This document shows positions 1 to 29,926 of a stretch of DNA of 29,926 bases, one piece after another. The DNA is from a virus. The translations under genes and the position numbers were made by a program. The notes beneath the pieces are model-generated. The model was given only the letters and a program-made list of their open reading frames with translations. It was not told where the DNA came from and made no database searches. The stretch's first letter is position 1. Each line of letters opens with the position of its first letter. The stretch lies in the IMG/VR virus record IMGVR_UViG_3300045988_112872, one strand, 5' to 3'.

Positions 1-99
1 ATTTTTTTTTTCTTAAAATTATTTGGAAATTTAAAAATAATGTTGTATATTTGTACTATCAAAATAAGAAATAATAAAAATGAAAATTTATTAAAAATA
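1..99. repeat. terminal redundancy, copy 1 (identical to 29828-29926)
   Basis: Read directly: nt 1-99 recur exactly at 29828-29926 (offset 29827). This means a closed circular or terminally redundant genome of 29827 bp. An exact 99-nt overlap could also be an assembler k-mer overlap. Confidence 0.9.
22..53 (+). promoter_or_regulatory. promoter P1 (rightward)
   Basis: TTTG (22-25), 20 nt, TATATTTG (46-53). This matches the Bacteroidota primary-sigma consensus of -33 TTTG and -7 TAnnTTTG. It can also be read as TTGGAA-17nt-TATATT. It is one of three near-identical copies (P2, P3). Confidence 0.55.
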
Positions 100-111
100 A
101 TTGCTAAATTA

Positions 112-143
112 TTTGGAAATTTAATTTTTATGTATTATATTTG
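112..143 (+). promoter_or_regulatory. promoter P2 (rightward), tandem copy of P1
   Basis: aaattaTTTGgaaattt...TATATTTG: TTTG at 112-115, 20 nt, TATATTTG at 136-143. It lies about 90 nt downstream of P1 and shares its flanks. Confidence 0.55.
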
Positions 144-171
144 CAGTATGAAACTAAAACTAATAATTCTA

Positions 172-197
172 GGCAGGTGAAAGTCCTGCCACTTTTT
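172..197 (+). terminator. GC hairpin plus T-tract (intrinsic terminator or attenuator downstream of P2)
   Basis: GGCAGG (172-177), loop tgaaagt, CCTGCC (185-190), then acTTTTTg. It lies about 25 nt after the expected P2 start site and upstream of the helicase gene. Confidence 0.5.
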
Positions 198-206
198 GAA
201 TCTTAC

Positions 207-256
207 TGTCAAGTTTTTTACTCACTTTTAGTAGTAAGAAAATAAAAATATTGACA
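207..256 (+). repeat. conserved intergenic element E, copy 1
   Basis: tgtcaagttttttactcacttttagtagtaagaaaataaaaatattgaca. The arms TGTCAA/TTGACA are inverted repeats. The core is ACTCA-N6-GTAGTAAGA. It ends 30 nt upstream of the helicase ATG. Confidence 0.75.
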
Positions 257-286
257 AAAACTTTAACTATTTAAATTATTAAAATT

Positions 287-2008
287 ATGAAAACATATTT
301 AAACAATTTGATTAATGAGTTGCCAACTAACTGCTTATTTGATAAAGGAAAAGTTGGATGTGGAGGAACTTCAATGGCAATTGAATGTAATAAGCCTTAT
401 GTTATTTGTGTTCCATTTACTAGCTTAGTTGAAAATAAACTTCAACAATATCCAAATGAAAGACGTACTGAGAAGATATTTGGAGTTTATGCTGGAGTTA
501 CTATTAAAGAGATTAAAGATTACGTAGATAGTGTTAAATGTCCTAAAATTATTGTTACATATAACTCACTTCCGAAGGTTATTTCTGCAGTTAATACTAA
601 AGAATACAGTTTATTAGTAGATGAATATCATATACTATTTAATCAGTATAGCTTTAGAAAGGATGCTATTAAACCTGTTTTAGAGAACTATGAATTATTT
701 AAAGATTTTACATTTATGACTGCTACTCCTCTTGAAGAAGAGTTTGTATTAGATGAATTAAAAGATTTAGAATTAGTAAAGCAAGAATGGGATGATGTTA
801 TTGAAACCAAGGTACAAGCCGTTAAATGTAAGAATGTTGAAGCTTCAACTATTAAATTAATTAATGCTGTTCTTAATAATCAAGTCGAAGGTAATGTTTA
901 TATATTTGTAAATTCTGTAGACTTTATAAAGAATCTTATTCAGAAAGCTAAACTTACAGAAGAGAATACCAGAGTTATATATTCCAAAAACAATAAAACC
1001 AAATTATCAATTCATAATTCTACAGTATTAGATGAACCTAAGAAAATAAATTTATTAACTTCTACAGTATTTGAAGGTTCTGATATTTATGATGAAAATG
1101 GAAGAATTGTAGTAGTAAGTGATGCTCAAAAAGCACAAACTCTTCTTGACATCTCAACTTCAATCCAACAGATTGCTGGCAGAATTAGAAATAGTAAATA
1201 TTTAAACTGGATAACTCATCTTTACTCAGCAACAAGATATGCAGATATTAGTTATGAAGACTTTAAAAAGAAGAATATCCAGAATATTGAGGAAACTAAG
1301 ATTGCTGTAGATGCTTACAATGCAATGCCTGAAGTTGCAAGAAAGAAACTTAAAGAATTTACATCTGATACTTATATCCAAGTAAATGATGATTTTACAT
1401 TTACATTTGATCCAAATATGGCTAAGGTAGATATTTTTAACTTTAAAGTGACAAGAGGTTTATATTCTATTAGAACGAATCTTAATAAAGAATATATAAA
1501 GAATGGATTTAAAAAAGTAATAGAATGTGAAGACAACTCTATTAAGATTGATTTTGAATCTGATAATAAACCATTTAAAGAACTAATTAAAGAAGTTAGA
1601 ACAGAATGGGAAAATAAATTTAAACTGAATACTCCACTCTTAAATGATGCTATTATTAAATATCCTTGGTTACCAGAAGCTATTAGTAAATTAGGATTCG
1701 AAAAGATGGCAAGCTTGAAATATTGCATTTCGGATATTAAAGATGCTCTATTAAAGAAATCAAATAAAAGTGCAGATAATAAAGCAGCTAAGAAGTTAAA
1801 TCAATCAATTACTCTTGGAATGTGGTATTCTAACGCTGATATTAAAAAGTTTGTTAAAGAAGCTTATGAAATTAGTGATATTACTATTACTCCAAAAGCA
1901 ACAGAAATTGATAAATATTATGAAGTTAAAAAATGCCAGAAAAGAGTAAATGGTAAACAAACTGAAGGTTATGTAATTATTAATAAAAAATTTGTATTTA
2001 ATAAATAA
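287..2008 (+). CDS. superfamily-2 (DExH) helicase, probable replication initiator/helicase
   Basis: 573-aa intact ORF. Motifs by eye: GKVGCGGTS (motif I-like), LLVDEYH (II), FMTATP (III), TSTVFEGSDI (V), QQIAGRIRN (VI). TAA stop. Its 5 Trp are all TGG and it has no in-frame TGA. Confidence 0.7.
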   Translation: MKTYLNNLINELPTNCLFDKGKVGCGGTSMAIECNKPYVICVPFTSLVENKLQQYPNERRTEKIFGVYAGVTIKEIKDYVDSVKCPKIIVTYNSLPKVISAVNTKEYSLLVDEYHILFNQYSFRKDAIKPVLENYELFKDFTFMTATPLEEEFVLDELKDLELVKQEWDDVIETKVQAVKCKNVEASTIKLINAVLNNQVEGNVYIFVNSVDFIKNLIQKAKLTEENTRVIYSKNNKTKLSIHNSTVLDEPKKINLLTSTVFEGSDIYDENGRIVVVSDAQKAQTLLDISTSIQQIAGRIRNSKYLNWITHLYSATRYADISYEDFKKKNIQNIEETKIAVDAYNAMPEVARKKLKEFTSDTYIQVNDDFTFTFDPNMAKVDIFNFKVTRGLYSIRTNLNKEYIKNGFKKVIECEDNSIKIDFESDNKPFKELIKEVRTEWENKFKLNTPLLNDAIIKYPWLPEAISKLGFEKMASLKYCISDIKDALLKKSNKSADNKAAKKLNQSITLGMWYSNADIKKFVKEAYEISDITITPKATEIDKYYEVKKCQKRVNGKQTEGYVIINKKFVFNK

Positions 2009-2026
2009 AAATATTATATTTGTGAT

Positions 2027-2152
2027 ATGGAAAGTGATATTAAAGAAACAATAAAACAAACAGAAGAGTATATTAAAGAATTGGATAAATGAATGCTCGA
2101 ATGTAAAGAGGCTACTAAAAGATTTGGTGATATTATAGATAAAGTATTATAG
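2027..2152 (+). CDS. small hypothetical protein (41 aa if TGA=Trp)
   Basis: ATG at 2027, in-frame TGA at 2090-2092, TAG at 2150-2152: MESDIKETIKQTEEYIKELDKWMLECKEATKRFGDIIDKVL. It could instead be two mini-ORFs. It is too short to be confident. Confidence 0.3.
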
Positions 2153-2177
2153 ATAAAGTATTAAAAGATAAAGATTA
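2137..2177 (+). repeat. three direct repeats AGATAAAG(T)ATTA (iteron-like)
   Basis: agataaagtatta at 2137-2149 and again exactly at 2151-2163. agataaagatta at 2166-2177. Period is 14-15 nt. They lie just downstream of the helicase gene. Confidence 0.5.
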
Positions 2178-2204
2178 TATGTTTATTTCTAAATTTGATT
2201 AATT

Positions 2205-2345
2205 ATGGATGATTATTTATTTAAAAAGCTTGAAGAACTAGAATACAGAATAGTTCAACTAGAAAACCAGAATAGAGGTTTAGTTTGGGAAGAAGTAGAA
2301 GAAATGCCAAAACCAGAAATTACTAATGCAACATATACTGATTAA
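2205..2345 (+). CDS. small hypothetical protein (46 aa, coiled-coil-like)
   Basis: ATG at 2205, TAA at 2343-2345: MDDYLFKKLEELEYRIVQLENQNRGLVWEEVEEMPKPEITNATYTD. It is packed between neighbouring ORFs on the rightward arm. Confidence 0.35.
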   Translation: MDDYLFKKLEELEYRIVQLENQNRGLVWEEVEEMPKPEITNATYTD

Positions 2346-2346
2346 T

Positions 2347-2490
2347 ATGAAATACCAAACCTATAAAGTATGTATAAATGGAGTGTATTATGTATATGTA
2401 ATACCAGAAAATAGTAAGTTTTTAGTAGACTTACAAACAGGAGATTTAATACCTAAAGAAGATGATAAATTATTTGAAATGATGGAATAA
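2347..2490 (+). CDS. small hypothetical protein (47 aa)
   Basis: ATG at 2347, one nt after the previous stop. TAA at 2488-2490: MKYQTYKVCINGVYYVYVIPENSKFLVDLQTGDLIPKEDDKLFEMME. Confidence 0.35.
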   Translation: MKYQTYKVCINGVYYVYVIPENSKFLVDLQTGDLIPKEDDKLFEMME

Positions 2491-2494
2491 ATGA

Positions 2495-2522
2495 AAATAG
2501 GAGGGCATAAACCCTCCTATTT
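2495..2522. terminator. bidirectional intrinsic terminator between the convergent arms
   Basis: aaataggaggg (2495-2505), loop cataaa, ccctcctattt (2512-2522). It sits between the last rightward ORF (ends 2490) and the last leftward gene (ends 2527). Both flanks are A/T-rich. Confidence 0.7.
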
Positions 2523-2526
2523 CTGT

Positions 2527-3096
2527 TTAAGCGTATTTTCAAATGTATCCTTTAGATGTTTGCTTTAATCCACTACATACTCTACTAATGGCTCCTCTAT
2601 CAGTTCCTACTGCATTAGCCGCTTCAGTACAGCTTTCATATTCCTTAATAAAGTTTCCCTCTAAATCATATTGTAAAACCTTTTTACATCTTTTCTTATT
2701 ATGAATTTCATTACTAATCTTCCAAGGCAAACTATATAAATGTTTCTTACCTTTATTTGATTCTGATAGTTTCTTTCTTCATTCTGGAGAAAATTTTATT
2801 CCATAGTTGCCACCTTCACCTCCTGGCTTCAAGTTTAAACACATTGGATCTACTTCCCATTTATCTCCTATTAATTCATACTCCCTTTTAGATAATTCAT
2901 CTGAATCATTACAGAATGCAATTATTTCTTTTTTATATGCATTAGGAAATCTTTTATAGTAGTTCTTAATAATTTTACCAGAACCTTTATATGGATCTTT
3001 ATATGGGTCTTTTCCTTTATAAATACGCTTACCAATGTAATATTTTCCTCTCAATGAGCCAGCAGTTAAATAAATTTTATAACAATAGTAAAACAT
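2527..3096 (-). CDS. GIY-YIG homing endonuclease (GIY-YIG, NUMOD3-like linker, C-terminal HTH)
   Basis: Joins track ORFs 2779-3096 and 2539-2730 (same frame) through TGA at 2779-2781 (FSPE-W-RKKLSESNKGKK). Reads through TGA at 2539-2541 (SKGYI-W-KYA) to TAA at 2527-2529. N-terminal YKIY...GKYYIGK is a GIY-YIG motif. Confidence 0.8.
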
Positions 3097-3098: not shown

Positions 3099-3551
3099 TT
3101 ATATAATTGTAAATTTCTGTCTTCTCTGCAAACCCTCTTTATTCTTCAGTCCTAAATGAATTCAACTAGCTATTCCATTTCTAGGTTTCTCATAAATAAG
3201 TTGATCAAAATCATACTTTTCAATAGCTTCAGTAATCCAAACCTGAAATTCTTTCATTTGGCCGTTACTTGGAATTATATCTGCTGCATACCCTGTTAAA
3301 TGAGCAGAAGTTGAAGATCCTCCTACAGCTTTATTAAGCTCATTACATCTATAACCTGAATTCACACTTATTGCTGGATTCCCCAACCGATTAACATCAC
3401 AATACTCTGCCCAATCACTTCTTAATGGGTCTAAAAGTTTCTCGACTAACTCTATAAGGTGTTCAGTAATCTCTTTATTTGGAGTATTATCTATCTTCTT
3501 AATAGAAGCTGTATCAGATCTTGTTAATTCACTAATAGTAAAATATTTCAT
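3099..3551 (-). CDS. endolysin, peptidase M15 (VanY / L-Ala-D-Glu peptidase type)
   Basis: SGYRCNELNKAVGGSSTSAHLTGYAADI is the M15 H-x6-D zinc motif. The track ORF stops at TGA 3162-3164. Read as Trp it continues ...NGIAS-W-IHLGLKNKEG... to TAA at 3099-3101, restoring the conserved W-x-H segment that holds the third zinc ligand. Confidence 0.8.
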
Positions 3552-3712
3552 TATTTAATAATATCTTTAAGCATAGTATAACGGTAAAATAAATGACATC
3601 CTGCACCAAGTGCTATGAGTACTAATGTAATCCAAAATGGAATTACTTTTACCATTAAAAATACTAAGATTATAATTACTATTGCTATTAAATATTTCAT
3701 CCAATATTTCAT
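3551..3712 (-). CDS. putative holin (53 aa, two hydrophobic helices)
   Basis: MKYWMKYLIAIVIIILVFLMVKVIPFWITLVLIALGAGCHLFYRYTMLKDIIK. Its TAA overlaps the endolysin ATG (TAATG). Missed by the track because it is under 60 aa. Confidence 0.5.
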   Translation of the reverse strand: MKYWMKYLIAIVIIILVFLMVKVIPFWITLVLIALGAGCHLFYRYTMLKDIIK

Positions 3713-3715
3713 AAC

Positions 3716-4369
3716 TTATTTATTTAAAATTATACTTACTTTAATTCCTGCATCTCTTAGTTTTACTCAAGTATCAACTGGCATCTCATTATCACAATAA
3801 GATAAGCCTAAAATTCCAATATCTCTATCTTCTGATTTTAAATAGAATATTGCAATCTTATTAACATCATTAGATTTAAATGTATAATACATTCTTCTAT
3901 CTAATTCCTTTATATCTTCAACATCTCCAAATCATCCTCCTTTTTTAGATGTTTCCAATATAAATAAATAATCAGATAATAGGAAGTCTTTATAGTGACT
4001 TGAAACTGGAGCAACTCCAGGTTCTGTTTCTTCACTATTCATAATTCCATAAGTGAATGGTAATCCTCCTAATCCTGAAGCGCCATTATGATACTCAATA
4101 ACTCAAGCTCTATCTGCATTCGTATCATTTAAAAGGTCTTTAAGGATATATCTAACCTTAAGATCCGCTTCTTGTCGTATTACTTGATTAGTATTATGAA
4201 CTGTTTCTATATAACTTACAACTTTATCATATATTATTCCTGGATTAGTACTTATAATTATTACATAAGAAATAAATATAAATCCAAATCCACTTTTAAT
4301 TATTTTCCACAGTCCATATTTATCTACTCATTCTAATACCTTTCCAAACCAGTTTAATTTATTTTCCAT
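3716..4369 (-). CDS. membrane-anchored protein of the lysis region (217 aa), function unknown
   Basis: ATG at 4369 overlaps the upstream TAA. There are four in-frame TGAs (VLE-W-VDKYG, ADRA-W-VIEYHNG, KKGG-W-FGDVED, PVDT-W-VKLRD) and TAA at 3716-3718. It has an N-terminal hydrophobic helix. This gene is invisible in the standard-code track. Confidence 0.6.
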
Positions 4370-5473: not shown

Positions 5474-6116
5474 AATAATATTTATAATTTTTGCAGGGTT
5501 TATTTTTTCTACAAGATCTAGATATACTAGAAGAATCTACATTATTCTTCTCTCCAGCTTCCTTAGCTGATTTATACTCACAAATAAAATTACCATCTAA
5601 ATCATACTTATATACTTTTTTGCACTGACGTTCTGAAATTAGTTGTTTTTCTTTATCTGAGAGTTTCATACCTTTATTTCAAGGAGTTTTGCCTAATCTT
5701 GCCTCCCTCATTTTACGCTTGCTTTCATCTGAATGCTGTTTACCATAAAATGAGTTATTTTCTCCTGATCTTATAATTCTAAGACTATCTTTATAATCTT
5801 GTGAAAAAGAATATCCACAAGTACCGTCTCCTCCATCAGTTAAATTATACCCATATTTTGGATTTCTAGTATTATACTTATAAATCAGAATCTTTTCTAA
5901 AGTCTTAGCACAAGCTTCTGGAAGATTATCTCTAATTATAATATGCTCAAAATTATCTCAACCATATTTTTTAATTGCTCTGCTAAAATAAAGATTATTC
6001 TTGTAACCTTGACCTTTAGTTCCCCATCTATTATTTAAAGTAAGTGATGTTATTCCAAAATATAATTTATTATCAGCTATATTCTTATGGCAGTACACTG
6101 TATAATTATTCAACAT
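5463..6116 (-). CDS. GIY-YIG homing endonuclease (217 aa)
   Basis: ATG at 6116: MLNNYTVYCHKNIADNKLYFGITS...NNRWG...AIKKYG-W-DNFEHIII (TGA 5958-5960) ...LGKTP-W-NKG (TGA 5679-5681) ... C-terminal HTH (track ORF 5463-5669). TAG stop. It overlaps the portal end by 11 nt and the connector start by 11 nt. Confidence 0.85.
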
Positions 6117-7197
6117 TTTCTGCATTGTCTGACATTCCTTTTGGAGTTAAACTAAATGGTTCAATAGTAATACTATTCTTAATGCCGAAGATTTTATCAA
6201 ATGAGTCACAAATTTCTGATTGTATTGGGCGTACAAAAGTACGATTATATAGCTTAAATGCTTCATTAAACTCATTTTCATTAAATCCTGAGCTATAGTT
6301 TAAACCGAACAACGAAGGATTAGCTCTGAAGGCACAGAATATTTGATCTCTGGTTCTCTCAGATAATGATTGATATTTCTCATCAAAATCATCAGAATCT
6401 AATCTTTCAATAGTAGTCTTATTTGCCTCATCTGCATTATATGAAATCAATATTCTGCCAGCATTCTGATAACCAGAGAACTTCTCATTAATATTCCTCT
6501 CAATCTCCTCTCTAATTTCATCTGTAGGTTCCCCATTATTAAAGTTAATAATAAGATTACCCATAAATCCATTATTGATGTTATTTAAATGGAATTCATT
6601 AATATTTTTCTCAGTTTCACAAGATAAAATGGCAGCTCCATAAACAGGAATAGGATATACTCCTCTTGTTATATAACCTTTATTATAAAATATACTAGCT
6701 GGATTTTCATCAGCAGCTCCAAATTTTGGATATTTTATAGCTTTTGCAGACCAAGCTGTCCAATCAGTTGCATAATATAATATATCATTCTTTTCGCTTG
6801 ACCTTACATTCATAAAATCAATATGATAGATCTCTGCAACTCTTCCAAGCATATCTCTAATTACTTGGATAGCATAACCTCCAAATATCATCTTATCAAT
6901 AGTGATTTTTCTCATTATATCAACTATTGTTTCACCTTTCTTGTTTACAACTACTTCAAATCCTGGAGCATTACATTTAACATCATTACCAACAATAAAG
7001 TCAGCAGAACCATTAATAATGGATTGGAGAGTGGCAACATTTAAATATAAATCCCATAGATATAATGGATATTTATTATCTTCTCCTCACATTACATAAT
7101 CTTTTCCTCTCACTTTAGTTTCTGTAGGTAATACGATATTACTTGCAATAAACGGATCAATAGCACTTAACTGAACTTTTGTTTTATTTTCGCTCAT
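6106..7197 (-). CDS. portal protein (363 aa)
   Basis: ATG at 7197 (MSENKTKVQLSAIDPF...GKDYVM-W-GEDNKYPLYLWDLY...), TGA at 7087-7089, continuing into track ORF 6106-6915. The pattern is portal-like (GEDNKYP, NNGFMG, FRANPSLFG). Confidence 0.7.
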
Positions 7198-7732: not shown

Positions 7733-8701
7733 TTATGCTGATGCTAAAGTTCAGTTTTTAGATGCAGCTAATGATTTCTGTTCCTCAGTAAGTGCATTAT
7801 AAACGTTAGTATAAAAAGTTAAAGTTTTGGTATCCTTTCCAGTTAAATCACTAACATTTGTAATAATATCAGTTACTGATTGACTATTTAGTGCGCTAAA
7901 ATTTGCTAAATTCATACTTTTATCAGCTCCTTCAACACCCCCAAAATAAGTAACAATAGTATTAGTAAATGCACATATTGAAGCTTTATTTAGATCTCCT
8001 ATTAATGTGCAATTATTTAATTTAATTTTTCCTACTGTTGTAACACCCTCATTATATGAACTAAAGTAATTATATAAAGATAGTTGTCCATTAATAACTT
8101 CAATTTCAGGAACATTACTGCTAACAGAATAAAAGAAAAAATGTAAAGATGATACACCAGTATCAACTTCATTTATCACTTTTAAAGTAGTTGGTAAATT
8201 AGAAGCATTAAAGAATGTTCTTGTTGCATAATTTCAACCAGAGGATAAGGTATTAATTAATTCTAAATTATTTAGTGTGCCTTGAAATCCAGAAAATGTA
8301 TCCGAATCCCCAACACTAATTCTTATATTATCAATATATATATTATATGTGTTTTGGAAGGTATATGATGCGTTATATACTTTAGACAGATCAATATGAC
8401 TTGATATATCTATTGTAGATATGAAATTAGTCCCATCAAATCAATAATGTATATTATCTGGAAGAGAATATTCTATATTATTATATTGCTCTTGTGTCAT
8501 ACTAGAATGTGCAAATGTTAATCCATAATCATTTAAATTAATCTTTCCTCCACCACCTCCAGAAATCTGTCCTATCTTATCTGCATAGCTTCTAAAGGTA
8601 TCGGAATCTGATACAGCAACACCTTTAGCTACAATAGCATCTTTAATGGCACTCTTAGTACCTTCAAGATACGTTAATTTATCAGAAATTGTATTTGCCA
8701 T
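7733..8701 (-). CDS. tail fibre / receptor-binding protein with BspA-type leucine-rich repeats (LRR-A, 322 aa)
   Basis: Joins track ORFs 8441-8701 and 7751-8179 through TGAs at 8441-8443 and 8234-8236. Reads through TGA 7751-7753 (AASKN-W-TLASA) to TAA at 7733. The N-terminus ISDKLTYLEGTKSAIKDAIVAKG is fibre-like. The C-terminus is paralogous to 10117-10959 and 12380-13333. Confidence 0.65.
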
Positions 8702-8702
8702 A

Positions 8703-9224
8703 TTAGATATATTTAAATTTTACCCCTTTATAAGTGTCTGTTCTTCCTTTAAGACAATCTATAACTCTACTATGAGTATACCCATCTATTGATGTTTCAA
8801 TTGCATTTTTATATGTTTTAACTAGTAAATCATTAATAAATAGCCCTACAGGTTTACTAATTTTATCAATACATCTATTTATTCTAGTTCCATATGTATT
8901 ATTATACTTTGCATCACATCATTCTAAATTTTCTACCCTATTATCTGTCTTATTTTCATTTATATGGTTAACATATGGTAGATTGTCAGGATTTGGAATA
9001 AATGCTTCTGCTACTAGTCTGTGAACTTTAATAGCTTTAGGTTTATCTAAGCCAGATACTAGAATTACATAATTATAGCCATATTTATCTATATGCTGTT
9101 TTAGCTTTTTATGTATTTGTTTTCTGGTTCTTCCAATAGAATCTTTAAAAGTCAATGGGTTACTATATACATCTCCTGTAGAAGATACACTATAGTTAGG
9201 ATAATTTGTTAATACTCTATTCAT
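8703..9224 (-). CDS. HNH homing endonuclease (NUMOD4-like N-terminus, HNH, C-terminal HTH; 173 aa)
   Basis: Start at Met 9224 ([21 protein letters not shown]...[13 protein letters not shown]...[27 protein letters not shown] 8919-8921), continuing to TAA at 8703-8705. It overlaps the fibre gene end by 8 nt. Confidence 0.8.
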
Positions 9225-9876: not shown

Positions 9877-9878
9877 AA

Positions 9879-10115
9879 TTATCTAACTTTTATTGATTCC
9901 TCATACTCTTTAGAAACTTTAATAGCTAATTCTTTATATTCAGCATCCTTATCTAAAGAGACTTCTGATAGATGCTCTAAATCGCAACTTAAAGGACAGA
10001 TACATTCAGTAAATGAACTGTATAATTTAATATCCATTCCTTCTTTATAGTTAGTAAGTATATAACCTTCTTCTGGACTAACTACTTTATATTTTTCTTT
10101 AATTTCAATTTTCAT
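9879..10115 (-). CDS. small protein, paralog of 12159-12380 (possible fibre chaperone/adaptor)
   Basis: 78 aa. It shares EGYILTNYKEGMDIKLYS...CPL with EGYFITSYKEGDDIKEYS...CPL in the other copy. Both copies sit directly upstream of a fibre gene. Confidence 0.5.
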   Translation of the reverse strand: MKIEIKEKYKVVSPEEGYILTNYKEGMDIKLYSSFTECICPLSCDLEHLSEVSLDKDAEYKELAIKVSKEYEESIKVR

Positions 10116-10116
10116 A

Positions 10117-10959: not shown

Positions 10960-10960
10960 A

Positions 10961-12157: not shown

Positions 12158-12158
12158 A

Positions 12159-18633: not shown

Positions 18634-18635
18634 AT

Positions 18636-21600: not shown

Positions 21601-22085
21601 ATTTCAGTATCAGCAGGTAAAACATTACCTTCCTCATCTGTAATAAAGTATTGTAAATCAGCAAGAGTTCTTAATGATCCATCTTCTTTATATTTAAGCC
21701 CATAGAAGAAATCTCCTAAGCCTCCATATAAAGTAATGTTATATGTAATGACCTTCTGTTTAATTTGTATGGTATTTAATTGCATATAACCAGATTCTAT
21801 TAAATCTCCATTATCATAGATTCCAAAATCAACTCGTTTTGAAGGATTGAAATTAATACCGCTAAACTGACCGTCTTCAATATGTTGTAATCTATCTAAT
21901 TTATAGATTTCTCCAAATATCTTATTATTATTTTTGGTACCAGGTATAGAAATCGTCTTACTAAACGAGTTCTTGACTATAGTGGGGTTTTGGAAATCCT
22001 CAACTGTATAAGTTATAGGAAGACTAATTCCCTCACTACAGTCAACCTCTTTATTTGCAATAAATAATTTAATATTCTTTCTCAT
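18636..22085 (-). CDS. large tail/baseplate protein (1149 aa) with a BACON-like or Ig-like C-terminal region
   Basis: Joins track ORFs 21096-22085, 20142-20954 and 18636-20135 (all one frame) through TGAs at 21096-21098, 21054-21056 and 20142-20144. The gaps were translated by hand and contain no TAA or TAG. Confidence 0.6.
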
Positions 22086-22086
22086 T

Positions 22087-24291
22087 TTATTTTCTATATT
22101 TATCTTGAGAACTTTGCACTTCTATAGTATAATAAAACATATTTTTACCCTGATTACTATACGTCTTATACTCACAACTATTATTAGTAATTATTACAGG
22201 AATAATCTTATTATCTTCCAGGTTATGTAAATATACCATAGTAGATTCTAATAGATGGTGCATCTTTGATGCTTGAGTATCTGTAAGATAATTAGTATAT
22301 AAAGTCCATTCTGGAACTATAGTGTTTAAATACTTATTTTTACTAAACTGAGAAGTGGTATTTAATACCTTTCTTACATAAGTCTGAGATTCAATTTGAT
22401 CCGTTTGTTTAACATTACCTTGTACTAATAAACTATCCCATCCTCCATAAGCATTAGTATAATATAATACATAATTCTTATTAGTAGTATCAATCTGATA
22501 ATTAATAGTTGTAGTAAAAGAGCCAGATTCAACAAATCCTATTTCATATTTACTCTTGCATTCCAAAAGTAAATTACCTAAAGGTTCTGCATAAGTATAA
22601 CCATTAATTCCTTGTCTTAATGTAATATCTACAGTAGTTGCTACTCCTTCAGGTGTAGTATAACGTCTATTAAGCACACCTTCACCAGTTGGGAATATCC
22701 AACTACATAATACATACTGTCTTGAATCAACTAAAGTGTCAATAGGATCACTTAAGAAATAAGGCTTAGTTAAATCTGTATCTTTATAAGACCAATCATT
22801 AAAGAATGTTACAGGCTTTTCACTACCGCTTGAAGTTATTAATGTAAAGGTTTTTAAATAGTTAGGTATAATTTCTGTCTTTCCAAAAGATGGAAATATA
22901 ATGCCGTTATCTAAAAAGTCTTCAGATACATCATTAAGTAAAAATTGTACTCCTGTAGTATCAGGATATTTATAAGCTTTACCAGCATAAATAGTATCTC
23001 CTGCATAATCAAGATGATATTCTATAAAATCATTTAAAGTTTCCTCTTCTCATATATAATCTTTCCATATTGGAGATATATCTACTTTAACCTCTTGTAC
23101 AATATTAAATGAAGTATTTATAACACTAGAACCATTTTTTACTACTGTAACTCCAACTGTTGCTTTTCTTGAAGCATTACCTGTATTTTCTGTAGCATCA
23201 AAATTAATACTTACAATATTCATACCTCCTGGAGTTCCTCTTTCTATTACTAACTCCATTTTACTTAACCAAGTCTGAGCATCTGCTGGAATTGCAAATA
23301 CTACATCATCTAAATTATCAGAACCTGTACCGTCTATCTTATATCTTCCTGCTGTATATCCAATACTAACACTGGACTTTAAAGATAAAGAAGTAGCTAA
23401 CTTAGTAATTGGAACTGTAGCATTTAATGTATATCCACCAGAGGTTATTGCAGTAACTAATGCAGCATAGTTTTTAATACTAGTTGTAGCATTATCAGGA
23501 AAAGTAATAACAAAGTATTTATTAACTTTATCAACCATAATATTTGAAGATCCTGGACAAGTTACAGATAATTCTGTTATCTCTTCCTCAGTACTTGTTA
23601 GAGTGCACATAAATCTATCAGTAACACCTGGGCCAGCTCCATAAGTTCCAGATGATGGATTAACTATTAACTTCAAATCTTCTGGAACTCCACTCTTTTC
23701 AATAGTAAAGCCATAACTATAAGAAATAAACTTATTAGTATCATAATAAGCTCCTAATTGAATAGTTCCAGTAAGATTAGTATTCCATTGAGTATTAGCA
23801 TTTACTGTAATCTTAAACTTAATAGAGCAGGAATCCCATTCTAATACCTCAACACTTACTAAAGCAGTAGCATTTACTACATCACAAGTTCATTTAATAA
23901 TATCTGCTCTACCTAATATATATTCAACAGTATAAGTACCTCCAGTATTGGGTACTGTTATACTGCTATTTGCAGGATAATATCCAGGAGCTTGACTATG
24001 AAGATAAACTGGCATAGTATCTTCTAATTGAGCAGTAGTCAGTCCTTTTGGGTATAATCTAAATATTGTAGAAGAGTCTGTTGTAATAGTTGAGGGATTT
24101 GTAAAGTTAATAGTACAACCACTTGTACTTGCATTAGAAATAGTAACATCTAATGGACCCTCTTCTGAATAGTCATCTCCTCATAGCCAATAATCATATA
24201 CTCCTGTAAGACCTCATCCTGGATTTTCCCATTTAACAGGATATGTTCCTGTACTTCTTGGTATTCCTAATTTACTTGGTATAAATGTCAT
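22087..24291 (-). CDS. virion protein with BACON-like domain (734 aa)
   Basis: ATG at 24291. TGAs at 24214-24216, 24181-24183, 23890-23892 and 23050-23052 join an untracked N-terminal 205 aa to track ORFs 23050-23676 and 22087-22677. The segment ADAQTWLSKMELVIERGTPGGMNIVSINFDATENTGNASRKATVGVTVV...FNIVQE looks like a BACON domain. Confidence 0.6.
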
Positions 24292-25035: not shown

Positions 25036-25695
25036 CTATTCAACAAACCCAGTTCCATTTTGCACCAAACTCACTGTTTTCCGAGACTGAACGATCATCT
25101 TCCTTAATTGATACTTCTTCACTGGATCTTTCTCCTTCTTCAGCATCTTCTTCATCTCCCTTATTGAAGAGATTAGGGTACTGACCGTTAATGCGGCTAA
25201 TAGATTGCAAAAAAAAACCATAATGTCATTTATGACAGTAATTGGAATTTTATCATATAACTTATCTGCCAGTTCAATTAAATCATAGCCTTCATTATAT
25301 TTCTTACCTTTTGGAATTAAGAAGCATAAAAAGATATATTTAAAATTCTTTTGATAGTCTTTATAAAAGTTCTGAAAATCTATATATTGAGCAGCAGTCA
25401 TCTGCCTAATATTTAATTGTACAGTATATTTATCTCCAGCAATAGTATATTCAGTTTCTGGAGCCTTAGCTTTGTATTTATTGATTATAAATTGAACTTT
25501 ATTAAGTTCTACAGCTAGTTCATCTAACCCCATACTCAAAAGAGTATCTCTTGTTTTATCTGGATCATCTGAAAGTAATGCACATATCTCAATACTTCTA
25601 TCTAAATCAGTCATCTTTGCATTACTGTTTATAAACTCCATTAGAGCTTCATATTGTTTAAGACTTACGTCTTCCCATTTAGTTGCTATATTCAT
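25036..25695 (-). CDS. hypothetical protein (219 aa)
   Basis: Intact ORF whose ATG overlaps the TerL stop. TAG stop. I recognise no motif. Confidence 0.5.
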   Translation of the reverse strand: MNIATKWEDVSLKQYEALMEFINSNAKMTDLDRSIEICALLSDDPDKTRDTLLSMGLDELAVELNKVQFIINKYKAKAPETEYTIAGDKYTVQLNIRQMTAAQYIDFQNFYKDYQKNFKYIFLCFLIPKGKKYNEGYDLIELADKLYDKIPITVINDIMVFFCNLLAALTVSTLISSIREMKKMLKKEKDPVKKYQLRKMIVQSRKTVSLVQNGTGFVE

Positions 25696-26942
25696 TATTT
25701 AATTGCAATATTATAAGTTCCTTTATTTGTATTTAAAGCATCATAAGCTAACATTAAAGATATACAAGTATCATCATTAAATCCAGATGGAGCATTATAT
25801 GATACATTTCCAGTCTTTGGATTATAACTGGCTTCATATAGTCTTAATTCATTTAATAGTTTATCATCCTTTAAAATACCAATCTTTTCATTTTCTAATG
25901 CAGCTTGTAGCTTATTTACAATAGCTGCCTTAGACTTATTAGTAGTTAAAAACTTAACTATCCGTAATTTAGGATTCCTTTTTACAAGAATATCATAAAA
26001 CACTGAACCTATTGAGTTTTGTTCGACTTGAACTATCTTTATAAATCCCTGATACTCAGTAAATATATTTGTCAGTAAATCAACTTGTTCTGTTGGAGTT
26101 TTGTCGTTAAAATACTTTATAAAGACCATCTGCCCATTTTCATTTAAAGCTGTAATACAAGTATAGTCTTTACCAGAACCAGTAGCCCAGTCAACTCCAA
26201 TATAAAGATTATGATATTCAGGTTTTTTATCAATTATGCAGTTAGATATATTATTAAAGAGACAACCATCATCATCTGCAAACTCCCCAAGATATTCAGT
26301 TCTAAATTTATTTTTAGAGGTTGTAAGGCGATACATTTCAAGTTTATCCTCACTCAATAGCATAGAGGTATCTTCTAATGCTCAATCAAAGGATTGATAA
26401 TATTTGCTAAAATTGCCATCAAAGCCTTTTTTAAAGCATTCATAAAAGAATCCTTCTCTAAACCTTGGAGTACTAATTATAAGTATCGGAGCATTCCATA
26501 CATCAGTGGTAGGCTTAATAATTTCAAATACTTCATCTTTAAGATAAGCTGCCTCATCAAGTACTAATAATCCACTAACGGAGAATCCTCGTAATGAATC
26601 CATTTGTTCTCCAGATCTAAATAGTATAGAACTGCCATTATTAAACTCTAATTCTAATAAGGTTTCATTCTTTCTTCTTAATATATCAGAGTCTATAACA
26701 GCTTGTACAAGTTCTTTAAATACCTTTCTAGATTGTCCAAGAGTTGGTTCAACTATACAATTAACACTCCCAGGATAATTTATAGCGAATCTCAATAATT
26801 CATTTTCTGCCAAGAACGATTTACCTACCTGTCTCTTTGCTTTAATTGTAAAGATTTTACCAGACCTATATGAGTCATTCATAGCAGTATGTACCTTTAA
26901 TTGATAGATAAATGGGCTATATCCTTTATATATTTTTGTCAT
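25695..26942 (-). CDS. terL: terminase large subunit
   Basis: Joins track ORFs 26382-26978 and 25695-26363 through TGA 26382-26384 (YYQSFD-W-ALEDTS). Walker A KRQVGKS, Walker B LLVLDEA, coupling motif STP, nuclease domain IGVDWATGSGKDY...FNDD. The start is taken at Met 26942. The alternative Met at 26978 would give a longer overlap with the upstream gene. Confidence 0.85.
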
Positions 26943-27378
26943 TGTTAATTGGATCTCCAAATTTAAACTGGACTTCATTATTCTGAATAGCTACAATAGT
27001 CTCAGGTTGATTTAATCCAAACATACTATTTATAGTCTTAATAATCTCATTTGCAGCTCTAATATCTCCCTTACTAATAGCAGTATCCAGTAATGATTCC
27101 AATCTTGATAATTGTATATGTCTAAGATTTTTTATAAGGTTATCATTCTTTTCAGCAATTATCTTATAAGCTTCTCCAATATATCTTGCAGCCGTTGATT
27201 GGCTTACATTATATTTACTTTGAAGTTCTTCACTTACTTTATTTCTGGACCACCCTTTATTAAATAATCTTGCTGCATAAAGATATTTAGTTTTTTGTTC
27301 GTCTATTTGATCCTCTTTTACTTCTTCCTTTTTCGGTCTCCCTATTTTCTTCGGCAGTTCCTGATTCTTTACTTTCAT
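26926..27378 (-). CDS. DNA-binding HTH protein, probable terminase small subunit (150 aa)
   Basis: It lies immediately upstream of terL and overlaps it. It has a basic N-terminus (GRPKKEE) and an HTH-like segment WSRNKVSEELQSKYNVSQSTAARYIGEAY. Confidence 0.4.
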   Translation of the reverse strand: MKVKNQELPKKIGRPKKEEVKEDQIDEQKTKYLYAARLFNKGWSRNKVSEELQSKYNVSQSTAARYIGEAYKIIAEKNDNLIKNLRHIQLSRLESLLDTAISKGDIRAANEIIKTINSMFGLNQPETIVAIQNNEVQFKFGDPINNDKNI

Positions 27379-27711: not shown

Positions 27712-28041
27712 TTAATCAATAAGTTTGTATATAACATCTATCAGCTTAGTAGATGCATCTTTTAATAATATCATAATATCTTTAATAATTGGAGTCATAA
27801 ATGCTAATAGTGCAATATACCCAACCATTAAAATTGAAAATTGACTTGTAATAAGAATATATATTAATCCAATTCACCAAGTCATACATAAACTGCAATC
27901 TAAAGGTTTTAGTCTTCAATCTTCTTTATAAGGTATACCTTTAAATAGTCTTTTTCAAATACTGTGTTTAAAACTATCCAAAGCCCCAGATAAATCAATT
28001 ATAAAGACTATTATTACTGCTATTATAAATAATTCTAACAT
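27712..28041 (-). CDS. small membrane protein (109 aa, about 3 TM helices, CxxC motif)
   Basis: ATG at 28041. It has three TGAs (KHSI-W-KRLF, YKED-W-RLKPLDCSLC, MTW-W-IGLIY, the last adjacent to a TGG Trp). TAA at 27712-27714. It is absent from the standard-code track. Confidence 0.6.
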
Positions 28042-28280
28042 AATCTCTCTCTTATTTGTTTAATAAATCTTTGAATTGTAGTATGACTAATTCCTAATAT
28101 TCTTCCCACTTCTCTATAACTGTGATATTCAGCATATAATATGATTACTGTCTTATCTGCCTTATTAAGCTCAAGTCATTTTGGATATATACTTAATAGT
28201 CTATCATCCATATTTGTAAACATACTATAGTCTATTTCATACTCAGTAAGTAAATCGTCAATATTAATCTTCCGTTTCAT
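28035..28280 (-). CDS. sigma-70 family region-4 protein (HTH half of a split sigma factor; 81 aa)
   Basis: ATG at 28280: ...SIYPK-W-LELNKADKTVIILYAEYHSYREVGRILGISHTTIQRFIKQIRERLC. TAG at 28035-28037. It has the region 4.2-type HTH pattern and is absent from the track. Confidence 0.6.
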
Positions 28281-28572
28281 TTAATCAATCCTCCAATTCG
28301 TCATTTTGTTGTTCAAGTGGTTCTTTAACAATCTCATAATATTTCTTATAGGTATAGTAATATCTACTTGTTTTACTAAACCAATAATTCTTAAATAATC
28401 TTGTAATCCAAAATTTCAATTCATTTTTGCTATCAAGCTGATTTAATTTTGGATTTGAATACTCTAGTATTTCTACAAAAATCATTTGAACACAGTCATC
28501 ATCTGCACCAAATTTTTGCTTAAGTTCCATAATAAATGGATAGTACTTTTCTACAATTTCGTTATTACTCAT
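28264..28572 (-). CDS. sigma-70 family region-2-like protein (N-terminal half of a split sigma factor; 102 aa)
   Basis: Track ORF 28285-28572 read through TGA 28285-28287 to TAA at 28264-28266. DDCVQMIFVEILEY and FWITRLFKNYWFSKTSR resemble ECF-type regions 2.1-2.4. Confidence 0.45.
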
Positions 28573-29059
28573 ATGTTCACATATATCCTCCTGCTGTTTT
28601 TCGCTGCCCTTTAAGAACCTTTACAATATTTCTAGATTGTATATTTAGTTCTCTCTCAGCATCTATTGCTGAATCCCATCTTTTAATAACTATTCCATTT
28701 AGTAATTGCAGTATTGGTTTCTTATGACTATATCCAGCTCGCAGATTATGAGTTCCATAATTATTATTATAATTATAAGTACACCATTCTAAATTAATTA
28801 CATTATTATTTGATTTATTTTCATCCTTATGATTTATACAAGGATAGTTATTCGGATTAGATATAAAAGTTTCAGCTACTAATCTATGTATATAACACTT
28901 CTTTTTCAAATTTTTATTATATAATGTTACTGTAAAGTACCCATTAGTTTTTACTTGAGGTTTTAACCTCTTTGGAACTGATGCTCTTAAACTTCATATT
29001 GAGCCATCAGTTCCAATTTGGTAGTTTTCAAAATTAAGTATTCTTTTATAGGCTATCAT
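28565..29059 (-). CDS. HNH homing endonuclease (NUMOD4-like N-terminus, HNH, C-terminal HTH; 164 aa)
   Basis: ATG at 29059: MIAYKRILNFENYQIGTDGSI-W-SLRAS (TGA 28994-28996) ...NGYFTVTLYNKN...IHRLVAETFISNP...INHKDENKSNN. It reads through TGA 28577-28579 (AGGYM-W-TYE) to TAA at 28565-28567. Confidence 0.8.
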
Positions 29060-29483
29060 TTGCTATATAATTACTAAATTCTGTATTTACATCTATCTTA
29101 ATGGCTTTCTTTAAAGACAACTCTGTTTTTAATGAATAGCCATAAGTTCCTCCAAAATCTGTTGTAGAACAACCATATTTCATAGAATCCTTTATAAAGG
29201 CTTGTTTTATATCTTTAAATATATATACTCCATCATCAAATATTATTACTAATATAGAATTATTTCTTGATAGCATATCAAATTTATCCCTATTAATAAT
29301 AGTGGTTGGATATTTATTAGAATTGAATCTTCTTCTTTTAACTTCAATTATATAATCAATTCCATTCCAATTAAATGTTCCATCATACCTGGAATAATCG
29401 TCTTTACATCATTCTATATCTATATTAAATTTCTCTTTAAATAGATTCTTTGTAAAGACTAAACTTCTTATATCTGTTTTCAT
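29046..29483 (-). CDS. PD-(D/E)xK-like nuclease (145 aa)
   Basis: ATG at 29483 overlaps the upstream TAA. TGA at 29409-29411 (NIDIE-W-CKDDYSRYDG) joins it to track ORF 29046-29276. D...IDYIIEVKRR resembles the D-x(n)-E-x-K motif. Confidence 0.4.
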
Positions 29484-29722
29484 TATTTTATATTATTAAT
29501 TTTAAGTGTTAAATCACAATATTCTTCATATAAATTAGATACTTCTTCACTTGCTGGATTAACCCACATTACTGAATCTAATTTATGTTTTAATTCTGCT
29601 CTTTCTAATCTTAATTCAAATGTTTTATGTTGTCTTTCCTGATAGACTTCATTTACTCTAAAACCTGCAACAATTGAAGATGCAATTAAAAGACCAACTA
29701 AAATTTTATTTATTTTTTTCAT
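29483..29722 (-). CDS. small membrane-anchored protein (79 aa), first gene of the leftward arm
   Basis: Intact ORF with an N-terminal hydrophobic helix (ILVGLLIASSIVAGF). TAA stop. Confidence 0.5.
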   Translation of the reverse strand: MKKINKILVGLLIASSIVAGFRVNEVYQERQHKTFELRLERAELKHKLDSVMWVNPASEEVSNLYEEYCDLTLKINNIK

Positions 29723-29766
29723 AATTTTATTATTTAATATGTTAATACTTGTTTATTATTGTACTA

Positions 29767-29798
29767 CAAAGATAATACATTTTTATTCAATTTCCAAA
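29767..29798 (-). promoter_or_regulatory. promoter P3 (leftward), same type as P1/P2
   Basis: The leftward strand reads aaaaaaTTTGgaaattgaataaaaatgtatTATCTTTGtag: TTTG (29798-29795), 20 nt, TAtcTTTG (29774-29767). It lies about 45 nt upstream of the ATG at 29722. Confidence 0.55.
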
Positions 29799-29827
29799 TT
29801 TTTTGACAACTTTTTTCATAATTTTTT

Positions 29828-29926
29828 ATTTTTTTTTTCTTAAAATTATTTGGAAATTTAAAAATAATGTTGTATATTTGTACTATCAAAATAAGAAATA
29901 ATAAAAATGAAAATTTATTAAAAATA
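29828..29926. repeat. terminal redundancy, copy 2 (identical to 1-99)
   Basis: See the feature at 1-99. Confidence 0.9.

What the first reader, a model, noticed from the sequence alone, without database searches (positions are those of the whole stretch)
1..29926. No suppressor tRNA or release-factor gene in a TGA-recoded phage whose host signals look like a standard-code, walled Bacteroidota
After re-joining, the only non-coding stretches are:
- the junction control region (about 29723-286);
- four 60-190-nt gaps around the E elements;
- short spacers.

I could find no cloverleaf-capable, T-arm-like (GGTTCGAATCC-type) sequence in any of them or elsewhere. I also found no RF or aminoacyl-tRNA-synthetase gene.

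MCP, portal, TerL and endolysin all need TGA decoding. So the phage must depend on something outside this genome.

The host signals are:
- three promoters matching TTTG-N20-TAnnTTTG;
- start codons preceded by A/T only, with no Shine-Dalgarno sequence;
- BACON-like and BspA-type LRR domains;
- an M15 peptidoglycan peptidase, which argues against wall-less code-4 Mollicutes.

Three explanations remain. The host could be an unrecognised code-4 walled bacterium. The phage could exploit host near-cognate tRNA-Trp readthrough. Or a helper element could supply the suppressor.
Basis: inference. Interest (0 to 1): 0.75.

Follow-up and report, generated by a model that had tools for sequence, protein, structure and literature searches.

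The report
TGA-recoded gut phage lacking suppressor tRNA
A complete 30-kb gut phage reads the stop codon TGA as tryptophan yet carries no tRNA, release-factor or synthetase gene to do so; this gap is real here, but it is already documented for most such phages and is still unexplained.

Summary
The window is a circular ~29.8-kb tailed phage (99-bp terminal overlap). It has 38 in-frame TGAs in 21 of 35 genes, including MCP, portal, TerL and the M15 endolysin. In relatives these TGAs interchange with TGG, so TGA means Trp, not Gly.

ARAGORN, relaxed ARAGORN and the Rfam tRNA model up to E=10 find no tRNA. At least 18 fully covered sister genomes have none either. Pfam finds no release factor or synthetase.

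Host signals point to Bacteroidota:
- four correctly placed TTTG..TAnnTTTG promoters;
- no Shine-Dalgarno use;
- relatives in Bacteroidales contigs;
- recent tail-fibre exchange with a ~168-kb TGA-recoded crAss-like phage.

The finding is not new. Published surveys detect opal suppressor tRNAs in only 15-35% of code-4 phages.

New here:
- TGA is kept out of the capsid module (0/10 Trp sites against 67/89 elsewhere) and nearly out of the early helicase gene (1/110 Trp codons).
- TGA is under-used for an AT-rich genome.
- The family also contains standard-code and TAG-recoded members.

These points argue against a native code-4 host. They favour decoding supplied in trans, at limited efficiency, in a standard-code host. 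The crAss-like partner shows no suppressor in the 50 kb examined. The mechanism remains open.

The parts
1..99 (.). Terminal direct repeat, identical to 29828-29926. It is an assembly overlap of a circular genome.
   Evidence: Exact 99-nt match of the two ends.
22..143 (+). Two Bacteroidota-type promoters (22-53 and 112-143; TTTGGAAATT...TATATTTG) that drive the plus-strand early genes.
   Evidence: Pattern search: 4 unique sites, all intergenic and correctly oriented; sequence read.
29767..29798 (-). Bacteroidota-type promoter at the head of the long minus-strand operon.
287..2008 (+). Early 573-aa SF2 helicase-like protein with 0 TGA and 5 TGG. The family is common in Bacteroidales phages and integrative elements.
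   Evidence: - TGA:TGG is 1:109 over 24 distinct orthologs.
- AF2 model has pLDDT 81, and Foldseek hits SF2 helicases at E~1e-8.
- Homologues lie beside Bacteroidota-type integrases.
1991..2490 (+). Fourth promoter (1991-2022) and three small early ORFs. The first ORF has a conserved TGA at codon 22 and is disrupted here by a short duplication.
2494..2523 (-). Strong hairpin terminator where the two transcription directions converge.
3099..3551 (-). Peptidase M15_3 endolysin. Codon 130 is TGA in all 17 distinct orthologs.
   Evidence: Pfam E=5.8e-15; site conservation.
3552..4369 (-). A 53-aa membrane ORF (3552-3713) and a 217-aa membrane-anchored protein with 4 TGAs. Together they look like a lysis cassette.
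6106..7197 (-). Portal protein, with TGA at codon 37.
   Evidence: Pfam Phage_portal E=5e-13. That site is TGA 14 / TGG 14 / Tyr or Phe 9 in relatives.
13425..16122 (-). Capsid module: protease, scaffold, MCP and tube-like protein. It is essentially free of TGA across the clade. The MCP TGA at codon 64 is private to this genome.
   Evidence: - Codon counts are 0-6 TGA against 26-210 TGG per gene.
- 0/10 Trp sites use TGA against 67/89 elsewhere, P=4e-6.
16318..24291 (-). Tape-measure-like protein (771 aa) and two large tail proteins (1149 aa and 734 aa), with 3, 3 and 4 TGAs.
   Evidence: Orthologs of the 1149-aa protein average about 7 TGAs.
25695..26978 (-). Large terminase, with TGA at codon 199.
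   Evidence: Pfam Terminase_6N/6C; site conservation.
7733..13333 (-). Tail-fibre / receptor-binding region: LRR-like proteins and a fibre with a Phage_tail_C tip. In sister genomes this is the recombination zone with the crAss-like phage.
   Evidence: Shared fibre DNA is shown.
2527..3096 (-). GIY-YIG/NUMOD homing endonuclease. It is one of four; the others are at 5463-6125, 8703-9302 and 28565-29059. These genes have the highest TGA fractions (0.6-0.72).
28035..28572 (-). Two overlapping small genes. Together they cover region 2 and region 4 of an ECF-type sigma factor.
   Evidence: Pfam Sigma70_r4_2. NCBIfam sigma70-ECF positions 4-104 and 117-161, both weak.
16201..16218 (-). 18-nt repeat GAGTAAAAAACTTGACAT, also at 7678-7695 and 206-223. 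They are promoter-like, not tRNA-like.
   Evidence: 3 copies against 0.11 expected. Conserved in 75 of 119 related loci.

Best explanation
**What it is (shown).** This is a complete, apparently virulent ~29.8-kb tailed phage of gut Bacteroidales. It belongs to a family whose members use code 11, code 15 or code 4. This lineage reads TGA as Trp and encodes no tRNA, release factor or synthetase. TGA decoding is therefore supplied in trans.

**How it most likely works (inferred).** The infected cell is a standard-code bacterium in which UGA is read as Trp with useful but limited efficiency. The genome is built around that limit.
- The early SF2 helicase gene is almost TGA-free.
- The mass-produced capsid module is kept TGA-free.
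- Low-copy tail, packaging, lysis and homing-endonuclease genes carry 1-7 TGAs each. Each TGA then acts as an expression throttle or timer.

**Source of the decoding (my commitment).** The host's own tRNA-Trp(CCA) reads UGA once competition from RF2 is relieved. The relief could come from an unidentified early phage product or from an intrinsically weak host RF2. This would be a code switch that needs no suppressor tRNA gene. I put it at about 0.35.

A suppressor tRNA-Trp(UCA) gene resident in the host population is nearly as likely, at about 0.3. It is listed as the first rival.

The general claim, trans-supplied decoding in a standard-code Bacteroidales host, I hold at about 0.7.
For: **No decoder in the genome or the clade.**
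- Tool results.
- At least 18 sister genomes of 29-32 kb are fully covered by tRNA-free loci.
- No RF or aaRS.
- Non-coding space is limited to promoters, terminators and three 18-nt repeats.

**TGA means Trp**.

**Standard-code Bacteroidales host.**
- Promoters and no SD use.
- Relatives sit in Bacteroidales contigs.
- Homologues of the early gene lie beside Bacteroidota-type integrases. One is a TAG-recoded prophage flanked by standard-code host genes.
- A circular 30.8-kb sister genome shares 2258 bp at 95% identity with the fibre gene of a crAss-like phage.

**Limited-efficiency decoding.**
- Capsid module: 0/10 Trp sites use TGA against 67/89 elsewhere, P=4e-6.
- MCP 1 TGA to 210 TGG, helicase 1 to 109, against 0.36 overall and 0.6-0.78 in endonuclease and fibre genes.
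- TGA is 35% of Trp codons, while other A/G codon pairs are 67-90% A-ending.

**Termination needs RF1 only.** All stops are TAA or TAG.

**The same puzzle in the co-infecting phage.** No Sup-TCA appears in 50 kb that includes the crAss-like phage's tRNA block. Four of seven published opal-recoded Zeta crAss genomes also lack it, despite having 18-25 tRNAs (PMC12386605).

**From established knowledge.** tRNA-Trp is the natural misreader of UGA. prfB (supK) defects are UGA suppressors. RF1-deleted E. coli reads UAG efficiently with near-cognate tRNAs.
Against: - No anti-RF2 or tRNA-modifying gene was identified. The only large TGA-free early protein is a generic SF2 helicase. The other candidates are small ORFs with no family match.
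- Genes just downstream of the host-type minus-strand promoter already carry TGAs, including the sigma-like pair (TGA fraction 0.3-0.74). The switch would therefore have to act very early.
- One small plus-strand ORF has a conserved TGA.
- Early-gene avoidance is only suggestive at the site level (1/4 sites, P=0.06).
- No phage anti-RF2 factor is known as a precedent.
- The host was not identified below phylum or order level. Its code and tRNA set were not examined.
Confidence: 0.35

Rival explanations
1. A suppressor tRNA-Trp(UCA) gene outside this genome does the decoding. It could sit on the host chromosome, in a resident prophage or plasmid, or in a co-infecting TGA-recoded phage such as the ~168-kb crAss-like phage that shares fibre DNA with this lineage.
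For: - Dependence on a trans factor is shown.
- Sister genomes have recombined recently with a TGA-recoded crAss-like phage. The two must therefore meet in the same cells.
- Some Zeta crAss phages do carry Sup-TCA (PMC12386605 Table 1).
- Yutin 2021 proposes host-encoded suppressors.
- TGA avoidance in the capsid genes fits competition with RF2.
Against: - The crAss-like partner's tRNA block holds only Leu, Met, Lys and Ile tRNAs. This covers 50 of 168 kb.
- The phage carries a full structural and packaging set. It reaches 763x coverage on its own contig. That is atypical for a helper-dependent element.
- I know of no reports of suppressor tRNAs in Bacteroidales chromosomes (own knowledge, not tested).
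Confidence: 0.3
2. The host is an unrecognised walled bacterium that natively reads TGA as Trp, or lacks RF2. The phage simply matches its host's code.
For: - Two unrelated phages that exchange receptor-binding DNA are both TGA-recoded. Neither shows a suppressor.
- TGA is never used as a stop.
- TGA and TGG interchange freely at 90/103 Trp sites.
- Low-expression genes approach the A-ending equilibrium (0.6-0.78).
Against: - TGA is excluded from the capsid module (P=4e-6) and nearly from the early helicase gene.
- TGA is only 35% of Trp codons in a 30% GC genome, where other A/G pairs are 67-90% A-ending.
- Close family members use standard code (L074, with no TGA at all) or TAG recoding (L142, L185).
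- Promoters and initiation signals are Bacteroidota-type. No code-4 gut Bacteroidota turned up in the literature search or is known from genome-wide code screens (own knowledge).
- The M15 endolysin excludes wall-less Mollicutes.
Confidence: 0.12
3. The phage does encode a decoder, but as a non-canonical RNA that tRNA finders miss. Examples would be a truncated, split or permuted tRNA, or one embedded in a coding region.
For: - Borges et al. favour undetected non-canonical tRNAs.
- Relaxed ARAGORN gives two 'tca' candidates against 0.18 expected in shuffles.
- Conserved non-coding elements exist.
Against: - The Rfam tRNA covariance model finds nothing at E<=10.
- Both 'tca' candidates lie inside conserved coding sequence. 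They have mismatched stems and no T-loop or D-loop signature.
- The total count of relaxed hits equals noise.
- The remaining non-coding stretches are promoters, terminators and an 18-nt repeat.
- No tRNA appears in any of about 60 related contigs.
Confidence: 0.05

Closest known systems
Alternatively coded (code 4, TGA->Trp) gut phages of Borges et al. 2021/2022, especially the small Garnet, Amethyst and Topaz clades (22-34 kb)
   Same: - Low GC, about 30 kb, from gut metagenomes.
- The family mixes codes 11, 15 and 4.
- Structural and lysis genes are recoded, and a key early gene is free of the recoded stop.
- Relatives occur as recoded prophages in standard-code Bacteroidales.
- A suppressor tRNA was detected in only 35% of code-4 genomes.
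   Different: - No integrase was found, and no integrated copy of the close clade.
- The complete absence of any tRNA is shown across a whole clade, and almost no non-coding space is left.
- Membership of a named clade could not be tested, because no reference sequences were on hand.
Opal-recoded Zeta-group crAss-like phages (Yutin 2021; PMC12386605)
   Same: - TGA->Trp recoding, mainly in late genes.
- Bacteroidales-type signals.
- Several complete genomes lack a Sup-TCA tRNA.
- One such phage shares fibre DNA with this lineage at 95% identity.
   Different: - Unrelated virion and replication modules.
- 160-190 kb with 4-34 tRNAs, against 30 kb with none.
Phages of Mycoplasma and Spiroplasma (hosts that natively use code 4)
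   Same: TGA codes for Trp, no suppressor tRNA is needed, and GC is low.
   Different: - This phage has a peptidoglycan peptidase, Bacteroidota promoters and no SD use.
- TGA is the minority Trp codon and is excluded from the capsid genes.
Code-25 phages of Absconditabacteria and Gracilibacteria (TGA->Gly)
   Same: In-frame TGA, no phage suppressor needed, walled host.
   Different: Here TGA aligns with Trp and aromatic codons, not Gly.

Membership tests
Stop-codon-recoded (code 4) phage | In-frame TGA in conserved essential genes, with coding density restored when TGA is read through | tested here: met
   38 TGAs in 21 genes. Minus-strand ORF cover rises from 21.9 to 27.3 kb.
Stop-codon-recoded (code 4) phage | TGA aligns with tryptophan in homologues | tested here: met
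   TGA aligns to TGG 617 times, then to Phe/Tyr codons. 90/103 Trp sites are mixed TGA/TGG.
Stop-codon-recoded (code 4) phage | TGA is not used as a terminator | tested here: met
   Stops are TAA 30 and TAG 5.
Stop-codon-recoded (code 4) phage | Phage-encoded suppressor tRNA(UCA), RF1 or TrpRS (frequent but not universal; 15-35% in surveys) | tested here: not met
   No tRNA. No RF or aaRS.
Stop-codon-recoded (code 4) phage | The recoded codon is avoided in early or standard-code-compatible genes | tested here: met
   Helicase gene has 1 TGA to 109 TGG. The site-level test is only suggestive (P=0.06). One small early ORF has a conserved TGA.
Phage of Bacteroidota | -33 TTTG / -7 TAnnTTTG promoters upstream of operons | tested here: met
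   4 unique sites, all intergenic and correctly oriented. About 2 would be expected over the whole 30 kb on both strands.
Phage of Bacteroidota | No Shine-Dalgarno use | tested here: met
   4/35 starts have an SD-like motif, against 0.14 background.
Phage of Bacteroidota | Direct host link (prophage, CRISPR spacer or culture) | tested here: inconclusive
   - Only distant relatives sit in Bacteroidales contigs (MCP 49-52%).
- Early-gene homologues lie beside Bacteroidota-type integrases.
- Fibre exchange with a crAss-like phage.
- No spacer search was possible.
Phage of a native code-4 host (Mollicutes-like) | TGA is the preferred Trp codon in all gene classes, and the host is wall-less | tested here: not met
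   TGA is 35% of Trp codons and 0/10 sites in the capsid module. An M15 peptidoglycan peptidase is present.
Code-25 phage (TGA->Gly) | TGA aligns with glycine | tested here: not met
   Gly codons are negligible among aligned codons.
Named Borges clades (Garnet, Amethyst, Topaz) | TerL falls inside the clade in a phylogeny | not testable with these tools

The most novel reading that the evidence does not exclude
This would be a code switch that needs no suppressor tRNA gene. An early phage product, or a host trait, removes RF2 competition, so the host's ordinary tRNA-Trp(CCA) reads UGA. The number of TGAs per gene then sets the yield and timing of low-copy tail, packaging and lysis proteins. 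The same mechanism would serve the co-infecting opal-recoded crAss-like phage. It would explain why most code-4 phages, and by analogy many TAG->Gln phages, have no detectable suppressor.
Probability: 0.3. Interest if true: 0.85.

Novelty: new member of a known kind. Interest (0 to 1): 0.45.

Why it matters
How recoded phages are translated in standard-code hosts has been an open question since 2014. Most code-4 phages have no detectable suppressor tRNA, and the usual answer is that the tRNA was missed.

This clade makes that answer untenable for at least one lineage:
- dozens of complete 30-kb genomes;
- over 90% coding;
- no tRNA-like sequence under the most permissive models.

The clade is also small enough to test. 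There are about a dozen uncharacterised early ORFs, it is abundant in gut samples, and it has a defined crAss-like co-infecting partner. The gene-class pattern of TGA use gives a quantitative prediction, namely decoding at limited efficiency that acts as an expression throttle. Reporters, ribosome profiling or metaproteomics can check that prediction.

Practically, such phages are mis-annotated and mis-hosted unless the code is handled correctly.

Tried and rejected
1. **Near-identical GenBank phage.** None found for the window or for the crAss-like partner.
2. **148-kb IMG/VR contig as a prophage in host DNA.** Rejected. The extra 118 kb is a TGA-recoded crAss-like phage. It is joined to the small phage inside a fibre gene that genuine 30-kb genomes share with that phage, so the contig is probably an assembly chimera.
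3. **Concatemer explanation for that contig.** Rejected. TerL, MCP and portal each occur only once.
4. **Relaxed ARAGORN 'SeC(tca)' hits at 3298-3392(-) and 5259-5356(+).** Rejected as noise. They lie inside conserved coding sequence, have poor stems and get no covariance-model support.
5. **Leaky-termination context.** The +4 base after TGA is not enriched for weak contexts; C is in fact depleted.
6. **The 573-aa TGA-free early protein as a translation factor.** Rejected. It has an SF2 helicase fold and sits in replication and integration modules of Bacteroidales elements.
7. **TGA->Gly (a CPR host).** Rejected.
8. **Walking the crAss-like genome to its tRNA block.** This used the last four viral scans (and the earlier 41). 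The block was reached, and no suppressor was seen. About 118 kb remains unread.
9. **Literature search for code-4 gut Bacteroidota.** Nothing found.
10. **PHROGs and NCBIfam.** They added almost nothing beyond Pfam.

Full report
**What the window is.** The first and last 99 nt are identical, so the 29,926-nt window is a circular genome of about 29.8 kb. GC is 26-36%. A short plus-strand module (287-2490) faces one long minus-strand operon (29722 down to 2527).

Pfam identifies these proteins:
- TerL (25695-26978), portal (6106-7197) and an XkdF-type protease (15529-16122);
- a Peptidase_M15_3 endolysin (3099-3551);
- a fibre with a Phage_tail_C tip;
- four free-standing GIY-YIG/HNH homing endonucleases;
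- a sigma-70 region-4 protein.

The MCP (13990-14895) is recognised by PHROGs and by homology. No integrase or DNA polymerase was found.

**Recoding is real and means Trp.**
- Reading TGA through raises minus-strand ORF cover from 21.9 to 27.3 kb.
- There are 38 in-frame TGAs in 21 of 35 genes, including MCP codon 64, portal 37, TerL 199 and endolysin 130.
- All 35 terminators are TAA or TAG.
- In 137 related loci the window's TGAs align to TGA (1202), TGG (617) and then Phe/Tyr codons, not Gly.
- 90 of 103 Trp sites are TGA/TGG-polymorphic among relatives.
- One caveat: the MCP TGA is private to this genome. Relatives have TGG or TTC there.

**No decoder gene.**
- ARAGORN finds nothing on the linear or circularised sequence.
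- Rfam finds no tRNA, tRNA-Sec, tmRNA or intron, even at E<=10.
- Relaxed ARAGORN gives 12 hits against 10.5+-2.9 in dinucleotide shuffles.
- Its two 'tca' calls lie inside conserved coding sequence, with broken stems and no T-loop or D-loop signature.
- A positive control worked.
- None of about 60 related contigs holds a tRNA. At least 18 of them are 29-32-kb genomes fully covered by the fetched loci.
- No RF or aaRS domain occurs in any ORF.
  - 3552-3715 is a 53-aa membrane ORF.
  - 24900-25045 looks like a frameshift extension followed by a terminator.
  - The rest are promoters, hairpins and three copies of an 18-nt repeat.

**Host signals.**
- TTTG-N17-23-TAnnTTTG occurs at four unique sites (22-53+, 112-143+, 1991-2022+ and 29798-29767-). 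All are intergenic and point into operons. About 2 are expected over the entire window.
- SD-like motifs precede 4/35 starts, which equals background.
- BACON and LRR_5 are sub-threshold and should not be leaned on.
- Better evidence:
  - MCP relatives (49-52%) lie in Bacteroidales contigs, one inside a 646-kb 'Bacteroides sp.' contig.
  - Homologues of the 573-aa early protein sit beside Bacteroidota-type integrases in 83-132-kb host contigs. One is a TAG-recoded prophage next to tRNA-Thr, with standard-code flanks.

**An unexpected partner.**
- One relative sits on a 148-kb IMG/VR contig. The extra DNA belongs to a phage of about 168 kb, 32% GC and strongly TGA-recoded.
- Its TerL is crAss-like, and it also lacks SD use.
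- The join lies inside a fibre gene.
- A circular 30.8-kb sister genome (contig 133025) carries 2258 bp that are 95% identical to that crAss-like fibre gene. Another sister shares 1689 bp at 89%.
- The two phage lineages have therefore recombined recently, and so share host cells. The 148-kb contig is probably an assembly chimera through the shared stretch.
- I walked the crAss-like genome to its tRNA block, using synteny with the published Lera genome.
- In 50 kb of a 168-kb contig only Leu(TAG), Lys(TTT) and Ile(TAT) were found. Sister contigs add Leu(TAA) and Met(CAT). There is no Sup(TCA).
- This matches the literature. Four of seven opal-recoded Zeta crAss genomes have 18-25 tRNAs but no TCA suppressor.

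**How TGA is used.** Over distinct orthologs, TGA/(TGA+TGG) is 0.36 overall.

| Gene or class | TGA : TGG, or TGA fraction |
|---|---|
| MCP | 1 : 210 |
| Tube-like protein | 2 : 113 |
| Scaffold | 0 : 26 |
| Protease | 6 : 80 |
| Early helicase | 1 : 109 |
| Homing endonucleases and one fibre | 0.6-0.78 |
| Tape measure | 0.62 |
| TerL | 0.47 |
| Endolysin | 0.44 |

- At the site level the capsid module uses TGA at 0/10 Trp sites against 67/89 elsewhere (P=4e-6). The early genes give 1/4 (P=0.06).
- TGA is 35% of Trp codons, while other A/G pairs are 67-90% A-ending.
- The +4 base shows no leaky-context bias.
- Endolysin codon 130 is TGA in all 17 distinct orthologs.
- A standard-code relative (L074) has neither in-frame nor terminal TGA. 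Another relative (L142) is TAG-recoded.

**Interpretation.**
- The dependence on an external decoder is established.
- A native code-4 host is disfavoured by the gene-class pattern, by the under-use of TGA and by the mixed codes in the family.
- Simple leakage cannot deliver proteins with 4-7 TGAs.
- Two options remain:
  - decoding by the host's own tRNA-Trp once RF2 competition is removed;
  - an external suppressor tRNA gene.
- I rank the first slightly higher. The same suppressor-less state recurs in the unrelated co-infecting crAss-like phage and in published complete genomes. The phage also terminates only at RF1-readable stops.
- No effector gene was found. The only large TGA-free early protein is an SF2 helicase.

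**Novelty.** The absence of suppressor tRNAs in recoded phages is documented. Borges 2021 found them in 35% of code-4 genomes. Cook 2024 found them in 11/73. Yutin 2021, citing Ivanova 2014, noted the same mismatch. This is a new, unusually clean member of a known class, not a new kind of system.

Noticed in passing
window 206-223, 7678-7695, 16201-16218 (all minus strand): An 18-nt repeat, GAGTAAAAAACTTGACAT, with about 20 nt of similar upstream sequence (TTTTCTTAGTAC...). There are 3 copies against 0.11 expected, and it is conserved in most relatives. One copy sits just upstream of the TGA-free capsid module, and two are followed by hairpins. It looks like a phage-specific promoter or regulatory site.
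   Followed up: partly
window 28035-28572 (minus strand): Two overlapping small genes (102 aa and 81 aa) match positions 4-104 and 117-161 of the ECF sigma-70 model. This could be a split or frameshifted phage sigma factor, and it might read the 18-nt repeat. Both genes contain TGA.
   Followed up: partly
L066 13780-16035 (IMGVR_UViG_3300045988_133025) vs L153 14310-16565; also L134 1-1685: Circular ~30-kb sister genomes carry 1.7-2.3 kb of fibre gene that is 89-95% identical to the fibre of a ~168-kb TGA-recoded crAss-like phage. This is recent exchange of receptor-binding modules between unrelated phages. The 148-kb contig IMGVR_UViG_3300045988_175865 is probably a chimera formed through this stretch.
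   Followed up: yes
L205 19118-19541 (IMGVR_UViG_3300045988_161810): A bona fide tmRNA gene (Rfam RF00023, 68.5 bits, E=2e-25) lies in phage-like 31% GC sequence of the TGA-recoded crAss-like phage. Its predicted tag is AKNTVRKMANKVMPLATPMRAQVAFAA. A ribosome-rescue RNA in a stop-codon-recoded phage may be relevant to how UGA is handled.
   Followed up: partly
window 3099-3551, codon 130: The endolysin's TGA is invariant: 17/17 distinct orthologs have TGA and none has TGG. Most other Trp sites flip freely. This fits selection for a recoded stop as a lysis gate. Two further fixed TGA sites are g3716-4369 codon 201 and g22087-24291 codon 134.
   Followed up: partly
window 2027-2188 (plus strand): In relatives a small early ORF of 53 aa has a conserved TGA at codon 22, directly followed by ATG or ATA. 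In this window a short duplication (ATAGATAAAGTATT) truncates it. It could act as a readthrough sensor, or it may simply be dispensable.
   Followed up: partly
window 24830-25045 (minus strand): Downstream of the 219-aa gene, an overlapping frame continues for about 50 codons (...WHQVYDMYIQEFLNIICYLIDKGNEEKRQIEEWKRRH). A strong hairpin terminator follows. This may be a programmed frameshift extension.
   Followed up: no
L185 (ena:ERZ28598220 scaffold_71, 132 kb), about 5900-21740: A TAG-recoded prophage with an integrase, next to host tRNA-Thr(CGT). Its flanks are standard-code host genes at 39% GC. It shares the 573-aa early helicase family (44% identity) but has a different, HK97-type capsid module.
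   Followed up: partly
window 172-190 (plus strand): A GC-rich hairpin plus a T-run lies about 30 nt after the second early promoter and about 100 nt before the helicase start codon. It could be an attenuator or the end of a very short transcript.
   Followed up: no
L211 15638-15710 (IMGVR_UViG_3300045988_166303): A more distant crAss-like relative carries 14 tRNAs, including tRNA-Trp(CCA), but no Sup(TCA). I did not check whether such phage tRNA-Trp genes have features that favour reading of UGA.
   Followed up: no
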